From Octopus sinensis (lineage: Eukaryota), in the NCBI RefSeq assembly GCF_006345805.1, contig NC_043010.1:28644001-28708000 (forward strand): a stretch of 64,000 nt of DNA. The letters run 5' to 3'. Made by a program: the position numbers and the translations under genes. Below are positions 33,243-33,462 of the stretch, in pieces (within the stretch, counting starts at the first letter, position 1; each line of letters opens with the position of its first letter). The notes below the pieces were generated by a model that worked only from the letters and a program-made list of their open reading frames with translations, had not been told where the DNA came from and ran no database searches.

Positions 33243-33462
33243 TATAACGGGAAGCTTTATGAAAATAGACAAAAGACGAAGGCAGGTGGAAAACAAACGA
33301 ACAATTGTATTAGTATGGCGCTCAGGAAATATAAATAAAACAAGTCTTTAACGTTTCGAGCCTACGCTCTTCAACAGAAAGATACACAGAGAGAAAAAAA
33401 ACACGGAAAGAAGGAGAGAAAAAAAATGCGTGCAGTAGCTAACGAATCAACATGGCGATCAT
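33243..33462 (-). mobile_element. Short (TA)n-inserted element with variant HHR-like motif at 33345-33382 (related: ~35571-35765, ~59449-59640)
   Basis: Minus: tcttt CTGTTGA A gagc gtag gctc GAAA CGTT aaaga. Copies share gtatta..gctcaggaaa and the overall layout. Confidence 0.65.

What the first reader, a model, noticed from the sequence alone, without database searches (positions are those of the whole stretch)
33345..33382. Family with a non-canonical hammerhead core
Seen on minus: tcttt CUGUUGA A gagc-gtag-gctc GAAA CGUU aaaga here; ttt CCGACAA A gagc-tat-gctt GAAA CAUU at 35662-35697; gttt CCGACAA A gagc-tcc-gctc AAAA CGUU aaac at 59544-59578. Stem I flanks differ yet still pair in two copies, and the stem II loop varies. 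Established: an extra A between A9 and stem II occurs in the CChMVd viroid HHR. Inference: allowing CpG decay, the ancestral cores are CUGUUGA and CCGACGA, variants at positions 6 and 4 that strict CUGANGA searches would miss.
Basis: partly seen in the sequence, partly recalled or inferred. Interest (0 to 1): 0.7.

Follow-up and report, generated by a model that had tools for sequence, protein, structure and literature searches.

The report
Penelope hammerheads with inherited core changes
These three motifs are the small hammerhead-shaped RNA elements at the ends of Penelope-like jumping genes; whole families of them, including the most recently copied one found, inherited a changed core letter (A6U or U4C), so they likely cut weakly or only with protein help, though cutting is untested.

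Summary
The three sites are solo terminal repeats (pLTRs) of Neptune-type Penelope-like retrotransposons. Each carries the published minimal type I hammerhead, for which the extra A after A9 is normal. The core variants are inherited, not decay. Genome-wide, 12,543 GUAG-loop motifs have U6 and 431 do not; those 431 show a neutral, transition-rich spectrum. In the UCC-loop family, 70 of the first 100 rows read CCG, 28 CUG and 2 CCA, so U4C and canonical cores are sister subfamilies. Canonical families coexist, so the variants are likely derived. A6U persisted through four subfamilies: N7 took all four letters, H17 switched between U and A, and 0 of 22 constrained positions changed against 39 of 120 flank columns. 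The youngest subfamily (0.8% divergence, two motifs about 4.4 kb apart) carries CUGUUGA. Best reading: a weakened, likely protein-assisted ribozyme whose cut is not needed for insertion; a catalytically dead structural relic is the close rival. 5' ends show no excess at the cut site. Cleavage is untested. Unchecked notes of this scan report A6U Penelope families in other (shark-like) genomes. New variant of a known kind.

The parts
33247..33460 (-). Solo, 5'-truncated pLTR of the youngest A6U Neptune-type PLE subfamily, between (TA)n-rich flanks
   Evidence: 99.5% identical over 221 nt to the pLTR of junction locus L278; matches both ends of full-length copy L260; sequence
33345..33382 (-). 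Minimal type I hammerhead motif, A6U: stem I 33382-33378/33349-33345; core CUGUUGA 33377-33371; extra A 33370; stem II 33369-33366/33361-33358 with GUAG loop; GAAA 33357-33354; palindromic CG; predicted cut after U17 at 33350
   Evidence: Sequence; stem I pair probabilities 0.62-0.95 and stem II 1.0; family counts
35571..35768 (-). Old solo pLTR of a related family (UAU/UUAC loop); boundaries approximate
   Evidence: 76-77% identical to L129 and L086, which carry CCGACGA; (TA)n at the 3' end
35662..35697 (-). Decayed U4C-type motif (G8A, C11.1U, G16.2A, broken stem I); predicted inactive
   Evidence: Sequence; comparison with L129 and L086
59452..59637 (-). Solo pLTR of the UCC-loop U4C subfamily, between (TA)n runs; boundaries approximate
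   Evidence: 84-86% identical (with gaps) to CCGACGA copies L113, L067, L115; sequence
59544..59578 (-). U4C-type motif with copy-specific CpG decay at both catalytic guanines (G8A, G12A); predicted inactive
   Evidence: Sequence; family reads CCGACGA...GCTCGAAAC

Best explanation
The three sites are solo terminal repeats of Neptune-type Penelope-like retrotransposons carrying the minimal hammerhead motif, and whole subfamilies inherited A6U or U4C in the core; these motifs are likely weakened ribozymes that would cut slowly, likely as a dimer and likely with help from the element's protein. Shown: element identity; inheritance of the variants; two motif copies per full-length element; the rest of the motif staying fixed over four A6U subfamilies. 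Inferred mechanism: RNA from an upstream pLTR through the ORF to the downstream pLTR holds two motifs. Their ACGU palindromes would pair to form helix III, and a cut after U17 or A17 would trim or circularise a minority of transcripts. Insertion would mostly use uncut RNA, so a rate-lowering core change costs little and can sweep, while the fold and the catalytic guanines stay under selection. The copies at 35662 and 59544 are predicted dead through later CpG decay.
For: Element: RT (Pfam RVT_1, 32.9 bits, cut-off 29.6) then CSRPRCRTC and a GIY-YIG domain lie upstream of a CUGUUGA motif in L091. An RT frame and CSRSRCNTC lie upstream of a CCGACGA motif in L093/L027. 30 of 37 junction loci have a motif at both ends (2,974-5,237 nt apart); 25 of the 30 have CUGUUGA at both. 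Inheritance: U6 in 12,543 against 431 other GUAG-loop matches, and in 28 of 28 motifs among 30 loci found by a downstream anchor that ignores the motif. Constraint: across 4 subfamily majorities 0 of 22 constrained columns vary against 39 of 120 gap-free flank columns (Fisher p = 4e-4). N7 is U, G, C and A in the four; H17 is U or A. Youth: median 0.76% divergence over about 3.4 kb in 23 full-length copies. Covariation: 8 of 9 stem pairs change on both sides across 14 hand-picked motifs. Literature: natural A6C and U4C lower but keep activity (PMC3088659). An Anolis PLE hammerhead cuts only with protein, and its catalytic mutants still insert in vitro (PMC11167929).
Against: No cleavage was measured. 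In a deep mutational scan of another hammerhead, all single and double mutants of the CUGA turn except the C3-G8 swap had low activity (PMC9901934). The GUAG loop is also invariant across the four subfamilies, so conservation is not confined to catalytic positions and may reflect protein binding or another function. 5' truncation points are not enriched at the cut site: 5 of 39 distinct loci by my hand count, similar to neighbouring TA/T microhomology sites. Three of the four subfamily majorities rest on 4, 5 and 9 copies, chosen from motif-containing loci. A6U lets U6 pair with A15.1 in a predicted off-state hairpin (P 0.98 in the young subfamily). No full-length copy examined has one unbroken ORF (longest 745 aa among 40 loci).
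Confidence: 0.55

Rival explanations
1. The A6U motif is catalytically dead and is kept only as an RNA structure, for example a rod of stem I, a U4-G5-U6/A15.1-C15.2-G16.2 helix, tandem G-A pairs and stem II, recognised by the element's protein.
For: Predicted helix G5-C15.2 has P 0.49-0.98 in the A6U groups with short flanks. Loop II is invariant. No excess of 5' ends at the cut site. U-turn mutants are weak. Cleavage is dispensable in vitro for an Anolis PLE. Conserved G8, A9, G12, A13 with a free N7 also fit the non-catalytic domain II fold (recalled from minimal hammerhead crystal structures, no call).
Against: With 25-nt flanks the helix persists only in the young subfamily. Canonical CUGACGA copies have an equally or more costly off-state (3.9 against 1.1-2.6 kcal/mol). 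The C3-G8 pair, the palindrome and a non-G H17 are all kept.
Confidence: 0.3
2. A6U with the extra A9a defines a fully competent alternative core, rescued by the extra nucleotide, a metal such as Mn2+, or the protein.
For: U6 is kept over four subfamilies with no A6 subfamily seen. The A6C phage ribozyme is active in Mn2+ (PMC7151607). Unchecked scan notes report A6U in other genomes.
Against: Canonical families carry the same extra A, so it is not a specific compensation. The pairwise scan found no rescue of U-turn mutants, although in a ribozyme of another type.
Confidence: 0.1
3. The variants are post-insertion decay of canonical cores, or canonical copies are CpG decay of CCG.
For: The window copies at 35662 and 59544 do show CpG decay at other positions.
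Against: U6 is found in 12,543 of 12,974 matches. CCG 70, CUG 28, CCA 2, CUA 0 in the first 100 of 8,497 matches. C4 and U4 are linked to different upstream words (17 to 0 and 0 to 13 among 60 copies).
Confidence: 0.02

Closest known systems
Minimal type I hammerheads (min-HHR) in pLTRs of metazoan Penelope-like elements (Cervera and De la Pena 2014, PMC4209133; main text parts 1-2 of 4 and supplement file 2 parts 1-2 of 3 read)
   Same: Location in both pLTRs; 4-5 bp helix I with U-rich 5' flank; unpaired nucleotide between A9 and G10.1; G10.1-C11.1 pair; palindromic C15.2-G16.2 with no helix III loop; most copies solitary and 5'-truncated
   Different: All 56 representative motifs in their Fig. 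S3 have U4 and A6 (their search pattern required the conserved core boxes; only U3-A8 covariation was noted). Here A6U or U4C is fixed in the larger subfamilies. Helix II is 4 bp rather than 6-8.
Neptune-clade EN+ PLEs (features from passages of Craig et al. 2021, PMC8557442)
   Same: RT with DKG and YIDD, CX2-5CxxC linker, C-terminal GIY-YIG with two internal cysteines, partial-tandem pLTRs, microsatellite (TA)n flanks, hammerhead near the 3' end
   Different: Non-canonical hammerhead core. Neptune and Nematis were not separated by an RT tree here.
Natural core variants: A6C in phage Bcep176 and U4C in a viroid (Perreault et al. 2011, PMC3088659, section 8 and passages; Naghdi et al. 2020, PMC7151607, part 1 of 4)
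   Same: Change at position 6 or 4 of the U-turn, with the rest of the core intact
   Different: Those are rare single examples in hammerheads with full helices. Here the change is A6U rather than A6C, in more than 12,000 copies of a helix-III-less, dimer-type motif.
Poseidon PLE of Anolis carolinensis, PAc (Frangieh et al. 2024, PMC11167929; passages read)
   Same: pLTR hammerhead in an EN+ PLE; no sign of ends at the cut site
   Different: PAc has tested, protein-dependent cleavage and belongs to another clade; nothing is tested here.

Membership tests
Penelope-like element, EN+ (Neptune type) | RT domain with PLE motifs followed by a C-terminal GIY-YIG endonuclease | tested here: met
   RVT_1 above cut-off in L091 and L269; DKG and YIDD; IIYC..YIG visible, but the Pfam GIY-YIG score 20.7 is below its cut-off of 22.6
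Penelope-like element, EN+ (Neptune type) | CX2-5CxxC linker between RT and EN (Neptune and Nematis) | tested here: met
   CSRPRCRTC in A6U copies and CSRSRCNTC in a U4C copy
Penelope-like element, EN+ (Neptune type) | Partial-tandem pLTRs flanking the ORF; microsatellite insertion bias | tested here: met
   30 of 37 junction loci have a motif at both ends; (TA)n at the 3' ends of the copies displayed
Penelope-like element, EN+ (Neptune type) | RT phylogeny places it in Neptune rather than Nematis | not tested
   No reference RT set was fetched
Minimal type I hammerhead (PLE min-HHR) | Helix I and helix II with covariation; G10.1-C11.1 pair | tested here: met
   8 of 9 pairs change on both sides; G10.1-C11.1 in 14 of 14, but that pair was fixed by the search patterns; helix I 71% and helix II 96% paired
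Minimal type I hammerhead (PLE min-HHR) | Unpaired nucleotide after A9; palindromic 15.2-16.2; NUH cut site | tested here: met
   Extra A in 27 of 28, C15.2 and G16.2 each in 24 of 28, H17 = A 22 or U 6 of 28 anchor-found motifs
Minimal type I hammerhead (PLE min-HHR) | Core CUGANGA | tested here: not met
   U6 in 12,543 of 12,974 GUAG-loop matches; C4 in 70 of the first 100 UCC-loop rows, plus 2 CCA rows; met only in sister subfamilies
Minimal type I hammerhead (PLE min-HHR) | Self-cleavage 3' of H17, as a dimer | not testable with these tools
   Genomic proxy (5' ends at the cut site) showed no excess; no raw RNA reads were listed
Non-LTR retrozyme | Non-coding tandem repeats of hammerhead-bearing monomers | tested here: not met
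   The window copies are solitary pLTRs of coding elements. Short tandem arrays of the A6U pLTR exist elsewhere, with different unit lengths.

The most novel reading that the evidence does not exclude
CUGUNGA-A is a recurrent natural hammerhead core of Penelope-like elements. It arose in this lineage and, according to unchecked scan notes, in vertebrate lineages too. It is held by selection and is active inside the element's ribonucleoprotein although the same change cripples free hammerheads, so protein rescue of the U-turn would make it a protein-gated ribozyme that cuts only after the retrotransposon protein has bound.
Probability: 0.2. Interest if true: 0.75.

Novelty: new variant of a known kind. 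Interest (0 to 1): 0.5.

Why it matters
What Penelope hammerheads are for is open. They cut poorly in vitro, and in one element the cut was not needed for insertion. This genome holds sister lineages with canonical, U4C and A6U cores, plus scattered natural revertants, in the same motif and with datable amplification waves. That is a ready-made comparison of cleavage rate against transposition success. It also shows that pattern searches for CUGANGA undercount these motifs: only 3,050 of 16,056 exact matches of the shared 3' half are canonical. Elements reported to lack hammerheads may need re-checking with relaxed cores.

Tried and rejected
Rfam: no hammerhead family among the 150 of 310 window matches shown and none in the A6U pLTR. 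A canonical copy is missed too, so the miss is not due to the variant.

5' ends at the cut site: 22 of 68 rows of a targeted pattern join (TA)n directly to the base after U17, and 19 of 30 loci inspected are truncations at or within about 2 nt of that site (my reading). The control listing (100 of 927 rows, 39 distinct loci, hand count) gives 5 at the cut site, 3 one or two bases later, 3 at the loop TA, about 6 at +7 to +9 and about 8 at +13 to +20. TA microhomology explains this; it is no evidence of cleavage.

Idea that both variants stabilise one off-state helix (4-16.2, 5-15.2, 6-15.1): predicted for A6U but not for U4C (P 0.01), and canonical copies are as hard to open. Rejected as a general explanation.

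Alternative register (U inserted before an A6): rejected, because N7 is A in only one of the four subfamilies and C3 would lose its G8 partner.

Sequencing runs: no RNA holder listed. Contigs of four runs under four organism labels cover the pLTR. No other letter is listed at position 6, but known N7 variants are not listed either, so this says nothing about U6.

Papers not held: Lunse et al. on PLE hammerhead variants, which may list core variants, and Ambros and Flores 1998. File 1 of the Cervera supplement was not searchable. Searches that found no report of A6U in hammerheads or of these families: (listings only).

One Fisher test was mis-indexed (all zeros) and is not used; the table printed there is. 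The flank count included gaps and microsatellite and was replaced.

Full report
Observation. The three quoted motifs are in the sequence at the stated coordinates on the minus strand. The shared 3' half, AGAGC-N3,4-GCTCGAAACGTT, has 16,056 exact matches in the own genome (2.72 Gb) and none for the reversed control. The genome is an animal one, very rich in (TA)n. An octopus is my inference from size and repeats, and scan notes use that label.

What carries the motif. In the first 30 loci the motif lies about 110-130 nt before a (TA)n run, and copies extend variably upstream. Longer copies hold a CSRPRCRTC linker and a GIY-YIG frame ending about 860-900 nt upstream of the motif. L091 adds an RT frame (RVT_1 32.9 bits; GIY-YIG 20.7 bits, just under its cut-off). 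These features match Neptune-type Penelope-like elements as described in passages of PMC8557442; Nematis shares the linker and was not excluded. A word joining the repeat's end to the element's 5' region has 127 matches. Of 37 such loci fetched for full length, 30 have a motif at both ends, mostly 4.2-4.6 kb apart, and 25 of these read CUGUUGA at both. In 23 of the 37 (those I chose with typical spacing; the rest were dropped) the median substitution divergence from the majority is 0.76%. None of the 40 loci has one unbroken ORF; the longest frame is 745 aa. Assembly indels may contribute, which is an inference. The window's 33247-33460 is a solo pLTR 99.5% identical to this young subfamily. 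U4C and canonical UCC-loop motifs also sit downstream of related coding fragments (L093/L027; L060).

Are the variants fixed? Of the 16,056 matches, 5,183 have CUGUNGA, 5,421 CCGANGA and 3,050 CUGANGA. Allowing any cut-site base, GUAG-loop motifs number 12,543 with U6 and 431 without. The first 100 of the 431 are C 69, A 22, G 9 by hand count, a transition-rich spectrum spread over all N7 letters, as neutral mutation would give. An anchor downstream of the motif, which ignores it, has 8,214 matches. In the 30 loci taken, 28 hold an ungapped motif, with U6 in 28, N7 = A 12, G 8, C 5, U 3, and H17 = A 22, U 6. In the UCC family the first 100 of 8,497 rows are CCG 70, CUG 28, CCA 2, CUA 0 (hand count). 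Symmetric CpG decay of CCG would give CUG and CCA alike, so CUG is a real subfamily, and C4 and U4 go with different upstream words. A tree of 119 pLTRs puts all GUAG-loop copies in one clade (45 rows, 100/99), with the one canonical row nested inside. It holds a supported group of 19 UCC copies, 18 of them canonical; the bootstrap had not settled and the root is a midpoint. U4C also appears in single copies of other families, so it may have arisen more than once; this is untested. Canonical cores in several other families and in all 56 published representatives make CUGANGA the likely deeper ancestor.

Is the motif still constrained? Four A6U subfamilies were defined by downstream words (64, 9, 5 and 4 copies; 85 of the 152 rows aligned, two groups of 3 and the unassigned rows left out; median divergence 0.7, 3.9, 3.9 and 2.5%). 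Their majorities differ at 39 of 120 gap-free flank columns but at 0 of 22 constrained motif columns (p = 4e-4). N7 is a different letter in each, and H17 is U, A, A and unresolved. These are the positions that hammerheads leave free (consensus in PMC7151607). Against a purely catalytic reading, the four loop II letters are invariant too, the groups are small, and they came from motif-containing loci. Across 14 hand-picked motifs from different families, 8 of 9 stem pairs change on both sides and 82.5% of cells pair against 64.5% shuffled; helix I is imperfect in decayed copies. The UCC subfamilies are 2-5% diverged, older than the young A6U wave.

How it likely works. Published PLE minimal hammerheads have the same anatomy, including the nucleotide between 9 and 10.1, and cut weakly and only as dimers (PMC4209133). 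The Anolis PLE hammerhead cuts only when protein is added, its catalytic mutants still insert in vitro, and no RNA ends were found at the cut site (PMC11167929). A6C gives low activity in Mg2+ and U4C lowers activity but leaves a viroid infectious (PMC3088659). U-turn mutants were weak in a mutational scan (PMC9901934). I therefore infer a weakened, probably protein-assisted dimeric ribozyme whose cut is not required for insertion (0.55). A dead structural relic is the main rival (0.3): A6U allows a U6-A15.1 pair in a predicted off-state hairpin, but canonical copies have an equally costly off-state. The genomic proxy for cutting was negative: copies that begin at the cut site exist but are no more common than at neighbouring microhomology sites. 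No RNA-level test was possible.

Comparison and novelty. The elements meet the tested features of Neptune-type PLEs. The motifs meet the min-HHR architecture but fail the CUGANGA core, so they are filed as a variant, with activity untested. Searches found no printed report of A6U hammerheads or of these families. The paper most likely to hold one (Lunse et al.) was not available, nor was one Cervera supplement file. That the viroid with the extra A is CChMVd is recalled; one search shows only the citation. Unchecked notes from this scan describe A6U Penelope families in other genomes; I did not test them. Verdict: real, a new variant of a known kind, interest 0.5.

Noticed in passing
window 39075-39330, minus strand: Decayed pLTR of another family with a canonical CUGAUGA-A core and GGCUG stem II, preceded by a tRNA-like head. 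It resembles the tRNA-headed Penelope family of other scan notes.
   Followed up: partly
window 60287-61062: Near-perfect palindrome of about 775 bp (arms 99-100% complementary, 1-nt spacer, sequence), possibly a fold-back insertion or an assembly artefact. It causes the MIR9408 Rfam hit.
   Followed up: no
L111 4980-6530; L288; L289; L290: Short head-to-tail arrays of the A6U pLTR plus part of the element's 5' region, with unit lengths of about 460, 475, 570 and 260 nt. They look like retrozyme-type units arising repeatedly from the parent element.
   Followed up: partly
L024 1835-1861 (minus) and related loci: A U4C subfamily with a GUC cut site has a U-U mismatch in the second pair of stem I.
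   Followed up: no
window 26183-31327: A 5.1-kb degenerate (AT)n array with strong GC skew.
   Followed up: no
window 14952-15151 and 46510-46713: Tandem 63-66 nt units of one dispersed repeat family.
   Followed up: no
L044 / L114: Two canonical UCC pLTRs in inverted orientation about 1.2 kb apart, nearly identical, as in the inverted PLE insertions described in PMC8557442.
   Followed up: no
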